Source of the DNA: an uncultured Candidatus Saccharibacteria bacterium
GTDB taxonomy: Bacteria; Patescibacteriota; Minisyncoccia; Phycocordibacterales; UBA2100
Length of the DNA stretch: 56,591 bases
Direction of reading: 5' to 3'
NCBI GenBank assembly: GCA_964633425.1
Contig: CAZWFX010000007.1
Span: forward strand, 1-56,591
A program made the translations under genes and the position numbers. The number at the start of each line of letters is the position of its first letter. Position 1 is the first letter of the stretch. The notes beneath the pieces are model-generated. The model had not been told where the DNA came from. It saw only the letters and a program-made list of their open reading frames with translations, and did no database searches. Below are positions 23,241 through 28,993 of this stretch, piece by piece.

Positions 23241-23343
23241 CGCTCAACTCAGCCAATTGACACGACCCTGAAATCGGGGCACAGTAGAGGCCGACTTTTA
23301 CGGTGGTATATCCCACATTGACCTTTGACAGGGAGAGTAATCA

Positions 23344-24120
23344 ATGGCTTTTCGGCCAATTCATGGGACGTTCGAGGAGTGTCTCAGTCACTACAGAAAA
23401 AACGGCGGTGATCATTCGTTCAAACGGATGCTGGATTTCAGCGTATCCAAGAACGAGGGCACGCTTCGCCGGTGGTTTGTGGATTCCGCACCGAACGGTG
23501 TGTACCGCATCCGCTTGCAGCAATATCTCTCGGACATCGGCTACAAGATTAAGGAGCTGCAGGGCGCCTCGGAGGAGATCCGGCTCGCGTGTCAGCTTCT
23601 TTCGTACGACCTGGCGACGGAAGATGAGATCGCATCCGGGTTCGGCATTCCCGAACATCGGTGGTCTCGGCTTCCGCATATGCTGGTGCGCGGAACGATG
23701 GCAGACGACCGCCTCGCAAAGGGGCGGTTGTATCTCGCGCCGCTCAAAACGCTGCTTGCGGAGGTGCATGAGGGGCGCATTCTTGCGCTCAGCAACACCG
23801 TGCCGTCTACGGCGCAGAAACCGGATGCGACCAAGGCCGCACCCGCTGCCCCTTCAGTCCCCGCGGTGCCGAGTTCATCTGCTCCGCCGGCGCACGTCAT
23901 TAAGGATCACGACGCCGTGATTCAGGCGACGGCAGCGATGCTGACGTCGGTGTATCCGCTTCTGCAGTTGGTGAATTCCGACCAATACACGGCGGAAGAG
24001 CGAAAAGCGCTGCGCGAGAAACTCGGCTTTTTCGGCGCAATGCAAATCTCAACTGAACTGAACCGCCTGTGCTCGGAGCGAGCGCGGGAGCAATTCAAAT
24101 CTGAAGGGAACGGGAAATGA
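23344..24120 (+). CDS. Hypothetical protein with two HTH-like segments, first gene of the GHKL/ParB-like cassette
   Basis: 258 aa, with GGGAGAG SD upstream. Segments SFKRMLDFSVSKNEGTLRRWF and ATEDEIASGFGIPEHRWSRL, a Pro/Ala-rich linker and a helical C-terminal domain. No family recognised. Confidence 0.7.
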   Translation: MAFRPIHGTFEECLSHYRKNGGDHSFKRMLDFSVSKNEGTLRRWFVDSAPNGVYRIRLQQYLSDIGYKIKELQGASEEIRLACQLLSYDLATEDEIASGFGIPEHRWSRLPHMLVRGTMADDRLAKGRLYLAPLKTLLAEVHEGRILALSNTVPSTAQKPDATKAAPAAPSVPAVPSSSAPPAHVIKDHDAVIQATAAMLTSVYPLLQLVNSDQYTAEERKALREKLGFFGAMQISTELNRLCSERAREQFKSEGNGK

Positions 24121-25880
24121 ACGCACAGACTCCTCCGACCGAGGGTGGTGACGGGACGCGTATTGAATACATGCCGCTGGGACTCTTCGTTGGCTCCGCA
24201 TTGTTCGTCGTCGCGGGACGCTACGAAACGCTGAAGGAAGCAATTCTGGAAGCGGTGCAGAATGCACTCGACAAGAAAGCGCGGAACATCAATATCGCGC
24301 TCAATCACAAGACCAACTATGTCGCGATCCGCGACAACGGTAACGGTGTCGGGCCTGCAGAATTCAAGGAGAAGCTGGCGACCGTGTGTCGCAGTCTCAA
24401 GTTGAACGATAAGGGCAGCCTCGGCCGGTTCGGCATGGGATTGATTGCGCCGCTTGGCAAATGTCGCGAGTTTACCTTCACGTCGTGCGAGAAGGGGGCG
24501 AGCGAATATCTGCAGTGGACGTTCAATTCAGCCGAGATCGAGAAAAGTCAGGAAGAGCCCTCGATCCCGTGCGTTGTGCAGTCGGACCTCGTCTTCAGGC
24601 CGCAGGGCGCCGGGTCCATCAAGGGCAAGGTGAAGAAGGCGACGTGGTGGCGAAGCCAGCTTGTGATCCACGATTACAAGAAGGACAAGCTGCTTTCGCG
24701 CATCGATTCCGCACAGTCCTTGGTCGACGAGATCAAGCGGCGCTATCGCCTGAAGATGCTCGAGAACGATACCGTGCTCACCGTGAAGTTCACCAACAGT
24801 GACGGCACCGAGGATCGCGTCGACGACGCGGTTGCGGAGCGCTACTCCGGCAAGGAGTTGCCGCCGTATGTGGTTCGTTCTCGCGGAAGCTCGGCAAGTC
24901 GCACGGATTTCGAGCTCTATCTCGCAATTCGTACGAAAGAAGGACAGGGCGGGCAGGTCGAGGTCGGCGTGATCGGAGATCCGTTCGCGTTCGAATTCGA
25001 AACGTTCGTTGATTCCGTGCCGGGCGTGCTGCCCAAGGAAGTCGTCGACGCACTCACGTCGGGGATCTTCGAAGGCGTCATCCGCGGCGACAAGGTCGAG
25101 CTCGAATCGTCACGCAAGAGCTTTAAGCGCAGCGATGCGGTTGAAGAGTTCTGCAAGGCGATCGTCGAATGGTACGAGAAGGTGGGAAAGGCGCACGTTA
25201 CGGAGATCTCCGAAGCGCGGCGCGAAGAGCGGTGGCAGAACATCATGCGCAAGGCGCTTGGTAATCTGCAGGAACTGCTCAAGGATAATCCGTCTTTCGC
25301 GTATCTTCGCGGCGCGTTCGATAATCTCAGCCGCGGTCGCGGTTCGAGGTCATCGACCGGAACCGTCCAGGGCGGTGAAGGTGAGAACGTGCAGGGTGTC
25401 GGCGGGGCACCGGAATCGGCCACGCCGTTTCCGGACCTTCCGCCCGCTAGCGGCGGGGGATCGGGCGGTGGCGATTCGGATCGTGATCCGAAAGCCGTCG
25501 ACGAGTCCTCCATCGGTGCCTCAGGTCCCGACGGCAAGCCGCGACGCTCCGTGAAGCACGGTGCGTTTGGTCTGCAGCTTTCGACCACACCGACCGAGGC
25601 GATGCTGCGTTCGAATGTGCTGTTCATGCTTGACGTTCCGTCGGCAACACTGCACTTCAACACGCGTCATCCCACGTGGGAGGCATGCGATACGACGCCG
25701 ATGAAACTGCAGCAGATGCAGGAAACGGCGATCATCTTCGCGCTCACCTCCAACGCGATGCCCGAAAGCCAGCAGGCTGCAGCGATGCTCGCCTTTGAGA
25801 CTGCGATCACTCCGCTTGTTGCGGGTGTGTATCACAACTCTGACGCGTTCGTGCTTTCAAAGCGACGTCGCGAAAGCTGA
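24117..25880 (+). CDS. GHKL-superfamily ATPase (HATPase_c_3 / MORC-Hsp90-MutL-like Bergerat fold)
   Basis: N box EAILEAVQNALD (aa 41-52), G1 IRDNGNGVG (71-79), G2 GRFGMGLIAPLG (103-114). Gly/Ser/Pro-rich linker at aa 405-478 and a C-terminal domain of about 110 aa. ATGA overlap with the upstream gene. Confidence 0.85.
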   Translation: MNAQTPPTEGGDGTRIEYMPLGLFVGSALFVVAGRYETLKEAILEAVQNALDKKARNINIALNHKTNYVAIRDNGNGVGPAEFKEKLATVCRSLKLNDKGSLGRFGMGLIAPLGKCREFTFTSCEKGASEYLQWTFNSAEIEKSQEEPSIPCVVQSDLVFRPQGAGSIKGKVKKATWWRSQLVIHDYKKDKLLSRIDSAQSLVDEIKRRYRLKMLENDTVLTVKFTNSDGTEDRVDDAVAERYSGKELPPYVVRSRGSSASRTDFELYLAIRTKEGQGGQVEVGVIGDPFAFEFETFVDSVPGVLPKEVVDALTSGIFEGVIRGDKVELESSRKSFKRSDAVEEFCKAIVEWYEKVGKAHVTEISEARREERWQNIMRKALGNLQELLKDNPSFAYLRGAFDNLSRGRGSRSSTGTVQGGEGENVQGVGGAPESATPFPDLPPASGGGSGGGDSDRDPKAVDESSIGASGPDGKPRRSVKHGAFGLQLSTTPTEAMLRSNVLFMLDVPSATLHFNTRHPTWEACDTTPMKLQQMQETAIIFALTSNAMPESQQAAAMLAFETAITPLVAGVYHNSDAFVLSKRRRES

Positions 25881-25900
25881 TGCTTCTCCCAAAAAACACG

Positions 25901-25930
25901 GGGCCCCGGAAGGATTTCCGGGGCCCTTTT
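25901..25930 (+). terminator. Rho-independent terminator after the GHKL ATPase gene
   Basis: 10-bp GC-rich stem gggccccgga/tccggggccc, 6-nt loop, then tttt. Confidence 0.8.
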
Positions 25931-25937
25931 CGTTATA

Positions 25938-25963
25938 TTGACACGGTCAGCTGTTTGTATAAT
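25938..25963 (+). promoter_or_regulatory. Promoter-like element for the ParB-like gene
   Basis: TTGACA (25938-25943) and perfect TATAAT (25958-25963) preceded by TG. The spacer is only 14 nt, so the -35 assignment is doubtful. Confidence 0.45.
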
Positions 25964-26042
25964 AGTCAGAAACGGAGGCAGTCATGCAGACTGTACGTTG
26001 ATTACCCTCATACTGAAACGCAAACACTCAAGGAGAACTGTA

Positions 26043-26981
26043 ATGGCTGAACAGGCCGAGAAATTCACCATCCGCCTCGGAGACATCGTTCGCGGCCCGC
26101 GTGTCCGCACGCAGCTCAGTGAACCTCGTATCGAGATGTTCATGCAGCTCTATGCCTCCGGCGCTGACGTCGAGCGGATCGAGCTGTACCGCGGCACGAA
26201 CGAGCTGTTCGCCGGTGATCACCGGACGACTGCGATGGAGCGTCTCGGCTGGCACAACCGTCAGATCGAGTACAAGCCCGTCGCAAAGCCGCGCGATCAG
26301 ATCACGATGCTCGTGGACAAGTACGCAGACAACGTGGGCGGCTCGCAGCCGCCGACGTTTGCCGATGCGGTCTTTGTCGCAAAGAAGCTCATGGAGGGCG
26401 GTGCTTCGCCGGCGAAGATCTCGCGCGGCTTCACGAAGCGCATGGGCGACACCTATCCTCCGTCATTCGTGCGCAAGCTCATGTCGCGAGCGCGGAATGA
26501 GTTCGTCTCGGAGCAGACGCAGTGCGCCCTCGCTGCCATGGCGGCGAAAGGGCTCACGATCGACCAGGCCGAAAAGGAGTTCAAGCTCGAAGCCGGGTCC
26601 TTGAAGAAGGTCATCACGAAGCGTTCCAAGGATAAGCCGGATATCGAGGCCGTGAAGGCTGCGATGTCGGGCCGCTCCAAGGGCTTCAGCCGCAAGAACG
26701 GCAGCGCACTTTCCGACTTGCTCGATCGCTTCGCCGAAAAGGGAGTCTCGGCGAAGGATGTCACCGACGTGTTCAAGCATGTCGAGTACCTGCTTGATCG
26801 ACAGGTCAGTGCACTGTCGAAGTTGCGTAAGCGCTTTGCGGCGCTCGGCGGCCCGAAGATCGGCAAGACGAAGAAGCGTCGCCGCTCTGCGGTTCGCACG
26901 ACCAAGCGCGCCAAGAGCTCGCGGCGCGCGAAGACGCGCAAGCCCAATCTCAACGGATCGGGTGCACACGCTTCCGCGTGA
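26043..26981 (+). CDS. ParB/sulfiredoxin-like N-terminal domain protein with highly basic C-terminal tail
   Basis: AAGGAG SD lies 7 nt upstream. ParB-N-like core IRLGDIV...ELFAGDHRTTAMERLGW. Tail KTKKRRRSAVRTTKRAKSSRRAKTRK. Confidence 0.8.
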   Translation: MAEQAEKFTIRLGDIVRGPRVRTQLSEPRIEMFMQLYASGADVERIELYRGTNELFAGDHRTTAMERLGWHNRQIEYKPVAKPRDQITMLVDKYADNVGGSQPPTFADAVFVAKKLMEGGASPAKISRGFTKRMGDTYPPSFVRKLMSRARNEFVSEQTQCALAAMAAKGLTIDQAEKEFKLEAGSLKKVITKRSKDKPDIEAVKAAMSGRSKGFSRKNGSALSDLLDRFAEKGVSAKDVTDVFKHVEYLLDRQVSALSKLRKRFAALGGPKIGKTKKRRRSAVRTTKRAKSSRRAKTRKPNLNGSGAHASA

Positions 26982-27004
26982 TCAGTAACGGGTAGTGGAC
27001 CCAC

Positions 27005-27039
27005 GAGGCCGTCGTTCGCGACGGCCTCTTTGCTTTTTT
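27005..27039 (+). terminator. Rho-independent terminator after the ParB-like gene
   Basis: gaggccgtcg-ttcg-cgacggcctc followed by tttgctttttt. Confidence 0.85.
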
Positions 27040-27070
27040 ACACTCTCGCGATACGCTCATTTGAATACAT

Positions 27071-28993
27071 ATGAAAGTAAACGACGTACGTACCAAGTTT
27101 TTTGACTTTTATAAGGCTCGCGGTCACGAGATCGTGCCGTCGGCACCCATCGTTCCCTTGAATGATCCGACAACGCTGTTCACCGGGTCCGGTATGCAGC
27201 CGATCCTCCCGTATCTACTCGGGGAACCGCATCCGAAAGGAAAGCGCATTGCGGACTCTCAAAAAAGTTTTCGAGCCGAAGATATCGAAGAAATCGGCGA
27301 CAACCGCCATACGACTTTTTTTGAAATGCTCGGTAATTGGTCGTTCGGCGACTACTTTAAGGAGGAGCAATTGTCGTGGGTCTTTGAGTTTCTGACACAG
27401 GAAATTGGTTTGGATCCGCAGCGTATGTATGTAACCGCTTTTATCGGCGACGAAAAAAACAACCTGCCGAAAGATGATGAGGCTGCCGCCATATGGACGC
27501 GCCTGTTTGCCGAAAAGGGCATCGACGCGTCGGCGGTCGATATCGGCAGTGAAGCGGACGGCTATGTGAAGGGAATGCAGGGCGGGCGCATTTTTTACTA
27601 CGAGGCAAAGAAGAATTGGTGGTCACGCGCGGGCGTCCCGGAAAAAATGCCTGTAGGAGAGCCCGGAGGACCCGATTCCGAAATATTTTACGACTTCGGG
27701 ACGATGCATGATCCGAAATTCGGTGACGAATGTCACCCGAACTGTGATTGCGGACGTTTCGTAGAGATCTGCAACTCGGTGTTCATGCAGTACATAAAAC
27801 AGCCCGACGGTTCATTTGCCCTGCTTCCGCAGAGAAATGTGGATTTCGGAGGCGGACTCGAGCGAATAGCCGCTGCGTCCAATGACAACCCTGACGTGTT
27901 CAGTATAGATACTCTGGCTGACATCATCACGTTCCTCGAAAAAATGTCCGGCAAGACGTATGACGATGAGTCTGCGCGACGATCCTTCCGTATCGTCTCG
28001 GATCATATGCGCGCCGCAACGTTCATGCTTGCAGACGGCGTGCGTCCGGCTAACTCGGACCGGGGATATGTGCTTCGGCGGTTGCTTCGACGTGCATCAC
28101 AGCATGCGCAAAAGCTCGGCATCACCTCGCAAAGCCTCGACGACAGTGCTCTGGTGCGTGCGGCAGTTGCCATCATCGAGAAATACAAGGGTGCGTATCC
28201 GGAGCTCGCGAGCGACGAGGCGTATCAGATGATCCGCGCAGAGATATGGAAGGAGGAGTTGCAGTTCGGGCACACCCTCGTGCAAGGGCTCAAAGAGTTT
28301 GAACGCATAGCAACGGGAGATATCTCGGCAGAACAGGCGTACACGCTCTTTACCACCTACGGATTCCCGTTTGAAATGACACAGGAGCTGGCAGCGGAGC
28401 GAAAGCTCTCGGTGGACGAGGTCGGATACAAGGAGCTCATGGTAAAGCACGCCGATCTGTCACGAGCAGGATCGGAGCAGAAATTCAAGGGGGGATTGGC
28501 GGATGCATCGCTCGAAACCACACGCCTACACACAGCTCACCATCTGCTTCTGAAAGCGCTCCAGATTGTACTCGGAGATCATGTTAAGCAGCGCGGCAGT
28601 AACATTACTGCGGAGCGACTCCGCATCGACTTTTCTCATGGCGAGAAAATGACCCCTGAGCAGAAAGCAGAAGTGGAGAGGATCGTTAACGAACAGATCA
28701 AGATGCATCTCCCTATGGTGCGTTCCACACTCCCGAAAGAAGAAGCAGAAAAGCTCGGAGCTGAGCACGAATTCGGCGCAAAGTATCCCGACATCGTATC
28801 GGTGTATTCCCTCGGACCGGTCGGAGCGGATGTTGAGAATCCGCAGTTCGATAAAGCATTTTCGATAGAATTCTGCGGAGGACCGCATGTCTCGAATACG
28901 CGTGAGATTGAAGAAGGAGGTATCTTCAAGATTCAAAAAGAAGAGGCCGTTGCGGCAGGAATCCGCAGAATCAAAGCGGTACTCACAAAATAA
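27071..28993 (+). CDS. alaS: Alanine--tRNA ligase, short form (640 aa, no C-Ala domain)
   Basis: Catalytic core (FTGSGMQP...FFEMLGNWSFGDYFK). Editing domain with HTAHHLL and CGGPHV. Ends directly after the editing domain. Confidence 0.93.
   Translation: MKVNDVRTKFFDFYKARGHEIVPSAPIVPLNDPTTLFTGSGMQPILPYLLGEPHPKGKRIADSQKSFRAEDIEEIGDNRHTTFFEMLGNWSFGDYFKEEQLSWVFEFLTQEIGLDPQRMYVTAFIGDEKNNLPKDDEAAAIWTRLFAEKGIDASAVDIGSEADGYVKGMQGGRIFYYEAKKNWWSRAGVPEKMPVGEPGGPDSEIFYDFGTMHDPKFGDECHPNCDCGRFVEICNSVFMQYIKQPDGSFALLPQRNVDFGGGLERIAAASNDNPDVFSIDTLADIITFLEKMSGKTYDDESARRSFRIVSDHMRAATFMLADGVRPANSDRGYVLRRLLRRASQHAQKLGITSQSLDDSALVRAAVAIIEKYKGAYPELASDEAYQMIRAEIWKEELQFGHTLVQGLKEFERIATGDISAEQAYTLFTTYGFPFEMTQELAAERKLSVDEVGYKELMVKHADLSRAGSEQKFKGGLADASLETTRLHTAHHLLLKALQIVLGDHVKQRGSNITAERLRIDFSHGEKMTPEQKAEVERIVNEQIKMHLPMVRSTLPKEEAEKLGAEHEFGAKYPDIVSVYSLGPVGADVENPQFDKAFSIEFCGGPHVSNTREIEEGGIFKIQKEEAVAAGIRRIKAVLTK

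What the first reader, a model, noticed from the sequence alone, without database searches (positions are those of the whole stretch)
23241..27040. HTH-like protein + GHKL (MORC/Hsp90-like) ATPase + ParB/Srx-like protein: candidate uncharacterised DNA-directed system between ptrB and alaS
Between the peptidase stop (23240) and alaS (27071) lies a 3.8-kb block with no housekeeping logic.

(1) 23344-24120 encodes 258 aa from no family I recognise. It has two HTH-like segments (SFKRMLDFSVSKNEGTLRRWF; ATEDEIASGFGIPEHRWSRL), a Pro/Ala-rich linker and a helical C-terminal domain.

(2) 24117-25880 encodes 587 aa, and its ATG overlaps the upstream TGA (ATGA). It carries all three Bergerat-fold motifs in the spacing of HATPase_c_3-type GHKL ATPases: N box EAILEAVQNALD (aa 41-52), G1 IRDNGNGVG (71-79) and G2 GRFGMGLIAPLG (103-114). 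These are followed by a middle region of about 290 aa, a Gly/Ser/Pro low-complexity linker (aa 405-478) and a C-terminal domain of about 110 aa.

(3) 26043-26981 encodes 312 aa with an N-terminal ParB/sulfiredoxin-like core. ELFAGDHRTTAMERLGW sits where ParB has its Arg motif. The tail is extremely basic (KTKKRRRSAVRTTKRAKSSRRAKTRK).

GHKL ATPases of this type and ParB-like domains each recur in prokaryotic conflict, defence and partition systems. I know of no named system with this three-part composition. Both enzyme families act as NTP-gated dimerising DNA clamps, which suggests a DNA-sensing, compacting or silencing module; this is inference.

The block uses Shine-Dalgarno sites (GGGAGAG, AAGGAG), unlike the surrounding SD-less core genes. 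By eye it also looks more GC-rich, with long antisense ORFs. Both points fit horizontal acquisition. No integrase, methyltransferase, obvious nuclease partner or flanking direct repeats were seen.
Basis: partly seen in the sequence, partly recalled or inferred. Interest (0 to 1): 0.82.

Follow-up and report, generated by a model that had tools for sequence, protein, structure and literature searches.

The report
Hsp90-like ATPase cassette in CPR bacteria
The block is real: its conserved core is a fast-evolving, movable gene pair (a DNA-binding HTH protein plus an Hsp90-like GHKL ATPase) found only in ultra-small Patescibacteria, with the ParB-like gene an occasional add-on, and it matches no described system, so it is a good candidate for a new DNA-directed conflict or defence module.

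Summary
All three ORFs exist as described. The GHKL call is solid: Pfam HATPase_c_3 E=1.2e-17, and the AF2 model matches Hsp90 N+middle domains at E~1e-12. P1 has an XRE-type HTH, seen only at family-profile level. P3 is a ParB/Srx-fold protein, but only a 108-sequence profile shows it (Noc, Spo0J, ParB, sulfiredoxin, E 1e-5 to 1e-4).

The "three-part system" is only partly right. Across about 45 Patescibacteria lineages the constant unit is P1+GHKL, adjacent in every sufficiently complete locus and often start/stop-overlapping. The pair survives a gene-order inversion. About half the loci add a small ~90-110 aa protein, UP2, which the window lacks.

P3 flanks the pair in only about 5 lineages, in two layouts. 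In the window it has its own terminator, promoter and SD. Other loci carry different basic DNA-binding proteins in that slot.

The cassette behaves as an accessory element:
- The site is empty in close relatives and the cassette sits elsewhere in other genomes.
- Module genes are 43-72% identical where flanks are 81-90%.
- GC3 is z +1.9 to +3.6 above the window's other genes.
- It uses SD sites in a largely SD-less genome.

No nuclease, helicase, methylase or integrase partner recurs, and PADLOC and NCBIfam name no system. Function is inferred, not shown.

The parts
23257..23285 (+). Promoter-like element upstream of P1 (TTGACA, 17 nt, CACAGT)
   Evidence: Read from the sequence. The block ATTGACA...GAAATCG..GCA.AGT..AGGCCGA is conserved with L001, although the P1 proteins are only 43% identical. 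The consensus scan did not call it, so function is inferred.
23331..23337 (+). Shine-Dalgarno GGGAGAG, 6 nt before the P1 ATG
   Evidence: GGAGA is conserved in L007 and L001. SD-like cores are found before only about 7% of the window's ORFs.
23344..24120 (+). P1: 258-aa protein with an N-terminal XRE/Cro-type HTH, a variable Pro/Ala linker and a conserved C-terminal helical motif (SDxFTxxER...LCSERAR). It is the obligate partner of the GHKL ATPase.
   Evidence: ORF. No Pfam, PADLOC, NCBIfam or PHROG hit on its own. The family sits immediately upstream of the GHKL gene in loci L001-L039 and L044. The 33-sequence profile hits the XRE-family structure 3op9 at E=0.0016. Members hit Pfam HTH_23 (6), HTH_3 (5) and HTH_17 (3), best E=1e-6.
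24117..25880 (+). GHKL (Bergerat-fold) ATPase, 587 aa: ATPase core, beta-rich middle domain with invariant R333, a ~65-residue helix (340-405), a disordered Gly/Ser/Pro linker (406-484) and an unassigned C-terminal domain with an invariant N515-x-x-H518-P519 motif.
   Evidence: Pfam HATPase_c_3 E=1.2e-17. Catalytic motifs are invariant. AF2 mean pLDDT 75. Foldseek top 50 are all Hsp90-family chains, E~1e-12 over ~400 columns. The C-terminal profile has no significant Pfam or PDB match. ATGA overlap with P1.
25900..25937 (+). Intrinsic-terminator-like hairpin (12 bp, 9 G-C) plus T-tract, 20 nt after the GHKL stop codon
   Evidence: sequence.
25938..25966 (+). Promoter-like site for P3 (TTGACA at 25938-25943; extended -10 TGTATAAT at 25956-25963)
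   Evidence: The scan gives 10 of 12 matches; sequence. Function is inferred.
26030..26035 (+). Shine-Dalgarno AAGGAG, 7 nt before the P3 ATG at 26043
   Evidence: This supports ATG 26043 as the start rather than TTG 25938, which lies inside the promoter-like site.
26043..26981 (+). P3: 312-aa ParB/Srx-fold N-terminal domain (motif G58-D-H60-R61...A64..R67-L-G69), a psq-type HTH, a helical C-terminal region and a very basic tail. It is a facultative accessory of the cassette.
   Evidence: ORF. No ParB hit on its own. The 108-sequence family profile hits Noc 7nfu 1.1e-5, Spo0J 1vz0 4.5e-5, ParB 7bnr 1.2e-4 and sulfiredoxin 6ky4 1.5e-4. Of 108 relatives, 8 hit Pfam ParB_N and 32 hit HTH_psq. The family HMM hits genuine CPR ParBs. 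P3 lies next to the module in the window, L007, L001, L031, L049 and L099.
27005..27038 (+). Terminator-like hairpin (10 bp, 8 G-C) plus T-tract after P3, before alaS

Best explanation
The block is a compact, horizontally mobile accessory cassette restricted to Patescibacteria (CPR).

Composition. The invariant core is a translationally coupled pair: P1 (XRE-type HTH plus a family-specific C-terminal domain) and a catalytically intact Hsp90-like GHKL ATPase. Optional parts are a small protein (UP2, absent here) and one of several interchangeable basic DNA-binding proteins. In this window that protein is the ParB/Srx-HTH protein P3, on its own promoter.

Most likely function (inferred). It is a DNA-directed conflict module: anti-phage or anti-plasmid defence, or a mobile element's own maintenance or exclusion function.

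Proposed mechanism (inferred).
1. P1 binds DNA through its HTH and docks on or gates the ATPase through its conserved C-terminus.
2. The GHKL protein is held as a dimer by its long helix and/or C-terminal domain.
3. It closes its N-terminal gate on ATP binding, as Hsp90, MutL and MORC do. R333 would act as the gamma-phosphate sensor.
4. This remodels or clamps a DNA-protein target.
5. The unassigned C-terminal domain (N-x-x-H-P) is the dimerisation or effector part.
6. P3 and its substitutes supply additional DNA targeting.

Shown: gene composition, homology, linkage, mobility and fast divergence. Inferred: every biochemical step and the biological role.
For: Linkage:
- P1 is immediately upstream of the GHKL gene in all family loci from species-representative genomes (L007-L039, L044).
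- The UP2-anchored scan adds further loci with the same arrangement.
- 4-nt or 1-nt overlaps recur.
- The pair stays together when the order is inverted, in L047.

Intact enzyme:
- All Bergerat motifs and R333 are invariant.
- The fold is Hsp90-like over the N and M domains.

Accessory and mobile behaviour:
- Found in only 39 loci among 185,579 species genomes, almost all Patescibacteria.
- Neighbours are unrelated housekeeping genes that differ from locus to locus.
- 0 of 80 other Patescibacteria alaS loci carry the module.
- Syntenic relatives L100 and L101 lack it at this site.
- One genome has the module about 360 kb from its alaS (L016 versus L106).
- In L002 it lies beside a large serine recombinase and a KAP NTPase, and it occurs on two viral-classified contigs.

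Fast evolution:
- Against L001, flanks are 81-90% identical but P1 is 43%, GHKL 60% and P3 72%.
- Against L004 and L014, flanks are 57-77% but P1 is 24-27% and GHKL 36-37%.

Foreign composition:
- GC3 z-scores are +1.9, +2.8 and +3.6.
- P1 and P3 use SD sites, against about 7% of ORFs in the window.

DNA-binding partners:
- P1 HTH.
- P3 ParB/Srx plus HTH_psq.
- Basic wHTH-like proteins in the same slot in L003, L014 and L027.
- UP2 precedes P1, P3 or another basic protein in every layout.

Precedent: GHKL/paraMORC ATPases are recurrent components of prokaryotic conflict systems (PMC2292703, PMC3710099, PMC12137116).
Against: - No recognisable effector (nuclease, TIR, HEPN, protease, pore) was found in any component.
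- The GHKL C-terminal domain has no significant match.
- No nuclease, helicase, methylase or integrase family recurs among 140 neighbours.
- No PADLOC model matches beyond weak hits: the window GHKL's are N-terminal only, and in the pooled 113-member scan the recurrent hits (TmtA, MzaB) fit the GHKL members in number.
- Most loci lie among core genes, not in defence islands.
- No experimental data exist, and P1-GHKL contact is inferred from gene coupling only.
- The P3 N-terminal domain could not be modelled confidently.
- The window's P3 has Asp at a position that is Arg in over 90% of the family.
- A regulatory or chaperone role cannot be excluded.
Confidence: 0.5

Rival explanations
1. It is a maintenance module (partition, segregation or copy control) of a CPR mobile element or prophage remnant. 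The ParB-like or other basic proteins would be centromere or operator binders, P1 the regulator, and the GHKL ATPase the motor in place of ParA.
For: - P3 has a ParB-fold N-terminal domain plus an HTH.
- DNA-binding proteins are interchangeable in one slot, as centromere-binding proteins are in partition loci.
- The module occurs next to a serine recombinase and on viral-classified contigs full of ORFans.
- It sits next to chromosomal parA-parB in L028, L029 and L032.
Against: - No partition system with a GHKL motor is known (my own knowledge).
- P3 is absent from about 90% of loci.
- Most copies are isolated 2-3 gene cassettes among housekeeping genes, with no other element genes.
- No repeat arrays resembling a centromere were seen in the window.
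Confidence: 0.12
2. It is a regulatory switch or toxin-antitoxin-like addiction pair. P1 would be an XRE-type repressor or antitoxin controlling its own operon, and the GHKL protein a growth-arresting or remodelling factor that P1 holds in check. There would be no direct role against foreign DNA.
For: - The layout is upstream XRE-HTH gene, overlapping stop/start, then a larger enzyme gene. This is typical of type II TA and of regulator-controlled defence operons (general knowledge); the facts are.
- P1 is the fastest-evolving component.
- The alaS-upstream site also hosts a ParE/YafQ toxin pair in L050.
- Two pooled members weakly resemble the accessory regulator mad1.
Against: - No GHKL-type toxin is known (my own knowledge).
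- At about 250 aa with a conserved C-terminal domain, P1 is large for an antitoxin.
- The recurrent extra DNA-binding partners (UP2, P3, c13) are not explained by a simple two-part addiction module.
Confidence: 0.15
3. It has a lineage-specific housekeeping role: a nucleoid-organising or protein-folding Hsp90 paralogue with a DNA-binding co-factor, inherited vertically at the peptidase-alaS site.
For: - The position upstream of alaS is kept in the window, L007, L001, L003/L004 and L014, down to 36% GHKL identity.
- The fold is closest to Hsp90.
- Neighbours are housekeeping genes.
Against: - The module is rare and patchy.
- It is absent from syntenic relatives L100 and L101 and from 80 other alaS loci.
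- It sits at unrelated sites in most genomes.
- It diverges far faster than its flanks.
- Scores against the HtpG equivalog models are 14-23 bits, against cut-offs of 371-455.
Confidence: 0.08
4. P3 is unrelated to the P1-GHKL pair and is adjacent in this window only by chance.
For: - P3 has its own terminator-bounded unit with its own promoter and SD.
- The P3 family (389 clusters) is far larger than the GHKL family.
- P3 occurs without the pair nearby in L050 and L091.
Against: - P3-family genes flank the pair in at least five lineages and in two different layouts: tandem in the window/L007 and L001, divergent in L031/L054, L049 and L099.
- P3 shares the small partner UP2 with P1-GHKL.
- P3 shares the cassette's elevated GC3 and SD use.
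- Both families are rare, so repeated adjacency by chance is very unlikely.
Confidence: 0.1

Closest known systems
paraMORC / prokaryotic MORC GHKL ATPases of restriction-modification and conflict operons (Iyer, Abhiman & Aravind 2008, PMC2292703)
   Same: - HATPase_c_3-type Bergerat ATPase with intact motifs, followed by a transducer-like middle domain and a family-specific C-terminal extension.
- Patchy, laterally mobile distribution.
- Encoded in small operons with DNA-binding partners.
   Different: - No SFII helicase, nuclease or methylase partner.
- The structural best matches are Hsp90, not MORC or MutL.
- The partners (XRE-HTH protein with a unique C-terminus, UP2, ParB/Srx-HTH) are not among those described.
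- Restricted to Patescibacteria.
Hsp90 / HtpG chaperones
   Same: - The N-terminal ATPase plus middle domain superpose at Foldseek E~1e-12 over ~400 columns.
- An invariant Arg in the middle domain is a candidate for the role of Hsp90's catalytic-loop Arg, by analogy only.
   Different: - NCBIfam HtpG models score 14-23 bits, against cut-offs of 371-455.
- The C-terminal part differs: a long helix, a disordered linker and an unassigned N-x-x-H-P domain.
- It has an obligate HTH partner gene, and it is rare and mobile.
MzaB of the MZA system and TmtA (PADLOC models)
   Same: Weak N-terminal GHKL similarity (MzaB E=3.5e-7, TmtA E=4e-7).
   Different: - Only about 100 residues match.
- The NCBIfam MzaB model scores 36 bits, against a cut-off of 850.
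- No recurrent extra partner genes accompany the cassette, and the window's P1 and P3 hit no PADLOC model.
Chromosomal ParB / Noc / Spo0J and sulfiredoxin (ParB/Srx fold), for P3
   Same: - The family profile aligns the N-terminal domain, including the G-x-x-R...A...L-G box, to Noc, Spo0J, ParB and Srx.
- An HTH follows the N-terminal domain, as in ParB.
   Different: - The motif is G-[RD]-H-R (Srx or ParB-nuclease-like), not GERRxR.
- The window copy has Asp where the family has Arg.
- There is no adjacent ParA.
- The HTH is psq-type.
- The protein has a long basic tail.
- The protein alone gives no significant ParB hit.
GHKL-fused Shedu (VcSduA, type I-D) of Vibrio cholerae (PMC12137116)
   Same: A defence protein in which a dimeric GHKL ATPase with a clamp-like middle domain is proposed to control a C-terminal effector.
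   Different: VcSduA carries a DUF4263 PD-(D/E)xK nuclease and is a single-gene system. Here no nuclease motif or Pfam match is present in the C-terminal domain, and a partner gene is obligatory.

Membership tests
GHKL / Bergerat-fold ATPases (Pfam HATPase_c_3, PF13589) | Profile match above the curated cut-off | tested here: met
   64.6 bits against a cut-off of 25, E=1.2e-17, residues 38-145.
GHKL / Bergerat-fold ATPases (Pfam HATPase_c_3, PF13589) | Motif I (E-x-x-x-N-x-x-D), motif II (D-x-G-x-G) and motif III (G-x-x-G-x-G) present and conserved | tested here: met
   E45, N49, D52, D73, G75, G77, G103, G106 and G108 are invariant in 17 family members.
MORC / paraMORC (PMC2292703) | GHKL domain followed by an S5-fold domain forming one ATPase module | tested here: inconclusive
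   A confident beta-rich middle domain follows the ATPase core. Foldseek aligns N+M to Hsp90, whose middle domain plays the same role. The S5 fold as such was not tested, and MORC2 is only a weak sequence hit (E=2.7e-3, N-terminus only).
MORC / paraMORC (PMC2292703) | Operon context with SFII helicase, nuclease and/or DNA methylase | tested here: not met
   No such family recurs among 140 neighbours of about 24 loci, and none is in the window block.
Hsp90 / HtpG | Match to the equivalog models above their cut-offs | tested here: not met
   NF010683 scores 23.5 bits against 455; NF003555 scores 14.3 against 371.
Hsp90 / HtpG | N-terminal ATPase plus middle-domain architecture | tested here: met
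   The Foldseek top 50 are all Hsp90, TRAP1, GRP94 or HtpG chains, E 8e-13 to 6e-11, about 400 aligned columns.
MutL | Equivalog model match | tested here: not met
   TIGR00585 scores 23 bits against a cut-off of 180. The C-terminal profile hits no MutL in PDB or Pfam.
MZA defence system (MzaB) | MzaB equivalog match and the other Mza genes nearby | tested here: not met
   36 bits against a cut-off of 850. Neighbours have no PADLOC hits.
ParB/Srx superfamily (P3 N-terminal domain) | Significant profile similarity to ParB_N or Srx domains | tested here: met
   Not met by the single protein or the 5-sequence profile. Met by the 108-sequence family profile: Noc 1.1e-5, Spo0J 4.5e-5, ParB 1.2e-4, Srx 1.5e-4. 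8 of 108 relatives hit PF02195. The family HMM hits CPR ParBs at 4.5e-6.
Canonical partition ParB (CTP-dependent clamp) | GERRxR CTP-binding box | tested here: not met
   The family has G-R-H-R and the window has G58-D59-H60-R61.
Canonical partition ParB (CTP-dependent clamp) | Adjacent ParA ATPase | tested here: not met
   No ParA lies next to P3 in the window or in L001, L031, L049, L050 or L091.
Canonical partition ParB (CTP-dependent clamp) | CTP binding and hydrolysis, and sliding-clamp formation | not testable with these tools
   This needs biochemistry. The AF2 model of the N-terminal domain was unreliable (pLDDT below 50).
XRE / Cro-C1 HTH family (P1 N-terminus) | Profile similarity to HTH_3-type domains | tested here: met
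   The window protein alone has no hit. The family profile hits the XRE-family structure 3op9 at E=0.0016, and P22 C2 weakly. Of 33 members, 5 hit HTH_3, 6 hit HTH_23 and 3 hit HTH_17 (best E=1e-6). Support is family-level and modest.
Any described anti-phage system (PADLOC-DB v2.0.0) | Component models matching the proteins of the block | tested here: not met
   The window's P1 and P3 have no hits, and its GHKL only N-terminal hits. In the pooled 113-member scan of all five families, the only recurrent hits are weak TmtA/MzaB hits, whose counts fit the GHKL members; a few isolated weak hits (2 to mad1, 1-2 to REase_II, Zor and Effector models) are not attributed to members.

The most novel reading that the evidence does not exclude
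This is a CPR-restricted, modular DNA-surveillance or silencing system. An Hsp90-like GHKL ATPase clamp would be directed to DNA by interchangeable adaptor proteins: the XRE-HTH protein P1, the ParB/Srx-HTH protein P3, or basic wHTH proteins. Each would be coupled through the small protein UP2. The system would act without a conventional nuclease, for example by compacting, silencing or evicting foreign DNA. That would make it a prokaryotic functional analogue of eukaryotic MORC silencing, built on an Hsp90-like scaffold.
Probability: 0.2. Interest if true: 0.85.

Novelty: new variant of a known kind. Interest (0 to 1): 0.6.

Why it matters
Patescibacteria (CPR) are a large share of bacterial diversity. 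They have tiny genomes and, to my knowledge, few recognised defence systems, and little is known about how they deal with phages and mobile DNA.

This cassette is a clean, 2-4 gene, experimentally tractable candidate that current defence catalogues (PADLOC v2, NCBIfam) do not recognise. If it is a defence or exclusion system it would add a new GHKL-based type with no obvious nuclease. It would also link Hsp90-like ATPases, ParB/Srx domains and XRE regulators in one functional unit.

If it is not defence, it is still a rapidly evolving mobile module whose function would inform GHKL-clamp biology. The work also defines three previously unnamed protein families (P1, UP2 and the P3 ParB/Srx-HTH family of about 390 clusters).

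Tried and rejected
1. ParB by single-sequence or shallow-profile methods failed: Pfam, a 5-sequence profile against PDB, and hhalign against three CPR ParBs (E=0.17, although it aligned the right motif).
2. The AF2 model of P3 from 5 sequences had pLDDT below 50 over residues 15-61. Its Foldseek search gave nothing at E<=1e-3.
3. Structure jobs refuse sequences taken from fetched loci. P1 and UP2 therefore could not be modelled with their deep alignments, and both job slots went to P3 and GHKL.
4. The k-mer-limited homologue search found only 3 clusters for P1. The family was recovered instead from neighbourhoods with HMMs.
5. The search for related loci rejected the P3 and UP2 alignments as too divergent. 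A fixed-gap UP2 pattern worked.
6. GHKL C-terminal domain: the profile against PDB gave only an insignificant AfPiwi hit (E=0.17) over the N-x-x-H-P motif, and Pfam gave nothing. I looked by eye for HNH (beta-beta-alpha-Me) and HEPN (R-x4-6-H) readings and rejected both, because the required conserved His or Arg spacing is absent.
7. The BFVD fold search returned only generic GHKL proteins: topoisomerase II ATPase, RIIA and Hsp90.
8. UP2 has no Pfam or PDB match.
9. Flanking att-like repeats and tRNA genes: none convincing.
10. The viral contigs L046 and L047 have no phage hallmark genes among the 10 neighbours tested, so phage carriage is unproven.
11. MADS membership through the mad1 hits is rejected. 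That paper describes mad1 as an accessory widespread regulator.

Full report
**1. Observation**

They lie between an S9 peptidase gene (ends 23240) and alaS (starts 27071).
- P1's TGA and the GHKL ATG overlap as ATGA.
- The quoted Bergerat motifs sit at the stated residues. They are invariant in 17 homologues: E45, N49, D52, D73, G75, G77, G103, G106, G108.
- The block is compositionally unusual. Per-kb GC is 57-61% against about 54.5%. Gene GC3 is 0.691, 0.728 and 0.761 against 0.615 +/- 0.041 for 54 other ORFs (z = +1.9, +2.8, +3.6). P3 is the highest in the window.
- P1 and P3 are preceded by GGGAGAG and AAGGAG. Only about 7% of all ORFs in the window have any SD-like core.
- There is no tRNA gene, integrase or convincing flanking repeat.

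**2. What the proteins are**

*GHKL*
- Pfam HATPase_c_3 E=1.2e-17. Other libraries give only weak N-terminal hits, all far below curated cut-offs: MzaB 36 bits against 850, HtpG 23 against 455, MutL 23 against 180.
- An AF2 model from 17 sequences has mean pLDDT 75. It shows the ATPase core, a beta-rich middle domain, a helix of about 65 residues (340-405), a disordered linker (406-484) and a well-folded C-terminal domain.
- Foldseek's top 50 PDB hits are all Hsp90-family chains, aligned over N+M at E~1e-12.
- The C-terminal domain carries an invariant N-x-x-H-P motif and matches nothing significantly.

*P1*
- No hit on its own.
- A 33-sequence family profile hits an XRE-family structure, 3op9, at E=0.0016. 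Several members hit HTH_3, HTH_17 or HTH_23.
- A conserved C-terminal motif (SDxFTxxER...LCSERAR) is family-specific.

*P3*
- All shallow tests for ParB failed. The AF2 model was unreliable exactly at the N-terminus.
- An exhaustive profile search found 389 related clusters.
- A 108-sequence profile then hit Noc, Spo0J, ParB and sulfiredoxin at E 1e-5 to 1e-4, across the G-x-H-R...A...L-G box.
- 8 relatives hit Pfam ParB_N and 32 hit HTH_psq. The family HMM also hits genuine CPR ParBs.
- So P3 is a ParB/Srx-fold domain plus a psq-type HTH plus a basic tail. The window copy has Asp59 where over 90% of the family has Arg.

**3. Is it a three-gene system?**

Contexts came from three sources: homologues, a scan of species-representative genomes (39 loci, nearly all Patescibacteria) and HMM-based neighbour calling. 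They show the following.
- P1 is directly upstream of the GHKL gene in every true family member, often with overlapping stop and start.
- On the viral-classified contig L047 the order is inverted, yet the two genes still overlap.
- A third family, UP2 (about 90-110 aa, motif ITFSL..W.G..P..GQVV.L....LF..GWRA), precedes P1 in about half of the loci. It is absent from the window.
- P3 is adjacent only in the window/L007, L001, L031 (=L055/L080, plus L054), L049 and L099. It is tandem in the first two lineages and divergent in the others. In L031/L054 and L099 the divergent P3 is co-oriented with, and overlaps, a UP2 gene; in L049 UP2 precedes P1-GHKL instead.
- A UP2-anchored scan gave 28 true loci: 19 are UP2-P1-GHKL and 5 are UP2-P3. 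Extra UP2 copies are followed by other Arg/Lys-rich proteins.
- In L003, L014 and L027 the slot after the GHKL gene holds an unrelated basic wHTH-like protein, c13.
- In the window, a 12-bp GC-rich hairpin with a T-tract follows the GHKL stop. A TTGACA/TGTATAAT promoter-like site and an SD then precede P3.

The conserved unit is therefore P1+GHKL. UP2 and a variable basic DNA-binding protein (here P3) are facultative partners.

**4. Accessory, mobile and fast-evolving**
- Neighbours differ from locus to locus and are mostly housekeeping genes. No nuclease, helicase, methylase or integrase recurs.
- Against L001, flanking genes are 81-90% identical but P1 is 43%, GHKL 60% and P3 72%. Against L004 and L014, flanks are 57-77% but P1 is 24-27% and GHKL 36-37%.
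- Of 80 other Patescibacteria alaS loci, none has a module gene. The syntenic relatives L100 and L101 (MgtC-PDDEXK-MGMT...alaS-orf381-orf480) have unrelated ORFs at the site.
- One genome carries the module about 360 kb from its alaS (L016 versus L106).
- L002 has a large serine recombinase and a KAP NTPase beside the module.
- The region upstream of alaS looks like a variable spot. It holds module variants in several lineages, and UP2-P3 plus a ParE/YafQ pair in L050.

**5. Mechanism**

The ATPase is intact, and gene coupling with P1 implies a complex. Every partner is a DNA binder.

By analogy with Hsp90, MutL and MORC (established knowledge; PMC2292703), I infer an ATP-gated dimeric clamp or remodeller that P1 brings to DNA. 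The C-terminal domain would be the dimerisation or effector part, and P3 or c13 would add targeting.

The biological role is most likely conflict-related: defence, exclusion or element maintenance. The supporting features are patchiness, mobility, fast divergence and foreign composition. No effector was identified and nothing has been tested experimentally, so confidence is about 0.5. Rivals are listed separately.

**6. Comparison with known systems and novelty**
- It works like a paraMORC-type module but fails the context criterion (no helicase, nuclease or methylase).
- It fails the HtpG, MutL and MzaB membership cut-offs.
- PADLOC v2 has no matching system: P1 and P3 of the window have no hits, and the pooled scan of 113 members of all five families adds only weak, mostly GHKL-type hits.
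- The mad1 hits are to what the MADS paper calls an accessory widespread regulator.
- Literature searches found no description of it.
- I classify it as a new variant of a known kind (GHKL-based conflict modules) with new partner families, restricted to CPR.

**7. Verdict**

The trio should be recast as a P1-GHKL core with facultative UP2 and P3. Interest is 0.6.

Noticed in passing
window, many gene starts (e.g. 6481, 10535, 19050, 29041, 30224, 36585, 40186): Many core genes have a TATACT or TATAAT-like box 6-12 nt upstream of the start codon and no SD. This suggests widespread leaderless or very short-leader mRNAs in this CPR genome. Only about 7% of ORFs have an SD-like core.
   Followed up: partly
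L050 2368-2849 and L051 (upstream of alaS): A ParE/YafQ-type toxin gene with a small upstream gene sits between a UP2-P3 pair and alaS. The alaS-upstream spot may be a hotspot for accessory cassettes in this clade.
   Followed up: no
L002 8200-13680 and 3139-3930: Next to the module in a 460-kb contig lie a SHOCT-domain protein, a 614-aa large serine recombinase, a KAP-family NTPase (935 aa) and a DUF4145 protein. This looks like a mobile-element or defence island.
   Followed up: no
L027 9688-10447; L062 2518-3420; L083 1014-1978: A second UP2 copy is followed by a 190-220 aa Arg/Lys-rich protein (c13 wHTH-like in L027; a different family with an RRRRRR stretch in L062 and L083). 'UP2 plus a basic DNA-binding protein' is a recurring pair.
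   Followed up: partly
L088 6311-6601 (-) and L091 7016-7393 (+): P3-family genes are followed by a conserved small protein of about 96-125 aa (motif LTxEQFVLLAIE...IHTVYSGFN.AFR.YF), not seen in the window. It may be a further partner of the ParB-like family.
   Followed up: no
L028, L029, L032 (downstream of the GHKL gene): In these genomes the P1-GHKL pair sits immediately upstream of the chromosomal parA-parB (soj-spo0J) operon.
   Followed up: no
L040, L041, L042 (and weakly L043): A more distant GHKL clade (E~1e-49 to the family HMM) lacks P1 in L040-L042 (L043 has only a marginal P1 hit, E=6e-4). In L040, L041 and L043 a different upstream gene family (cluster c20, 122-273 aa) takes the place of P1. 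It may be a sister system.
   Followed up: no
window 24917-25663 (-), 26453-27004 (-), 26463-26969 (-): Long antisense ORFs (168-248 aa) lie inside the GHKL and P3 genes. They fit the raised GC of the block. No evidence that they are genes was sought or seen.
   Followed up: no
window 27071-28993: AlaS is only 640 aa. The related loci show similarly short AlaS (599-665 aa), well short of the ~870 aa I recall for typical bacterial AlaS, as if the usual C-terminal region is missing in this lineage.
   Followed up: no
L049 4078-4521 (-): In this locus P1 is only 147 aa, apparently truncated, while UP2, GHKL and a divergent P3 are intact.
   Followed up: no
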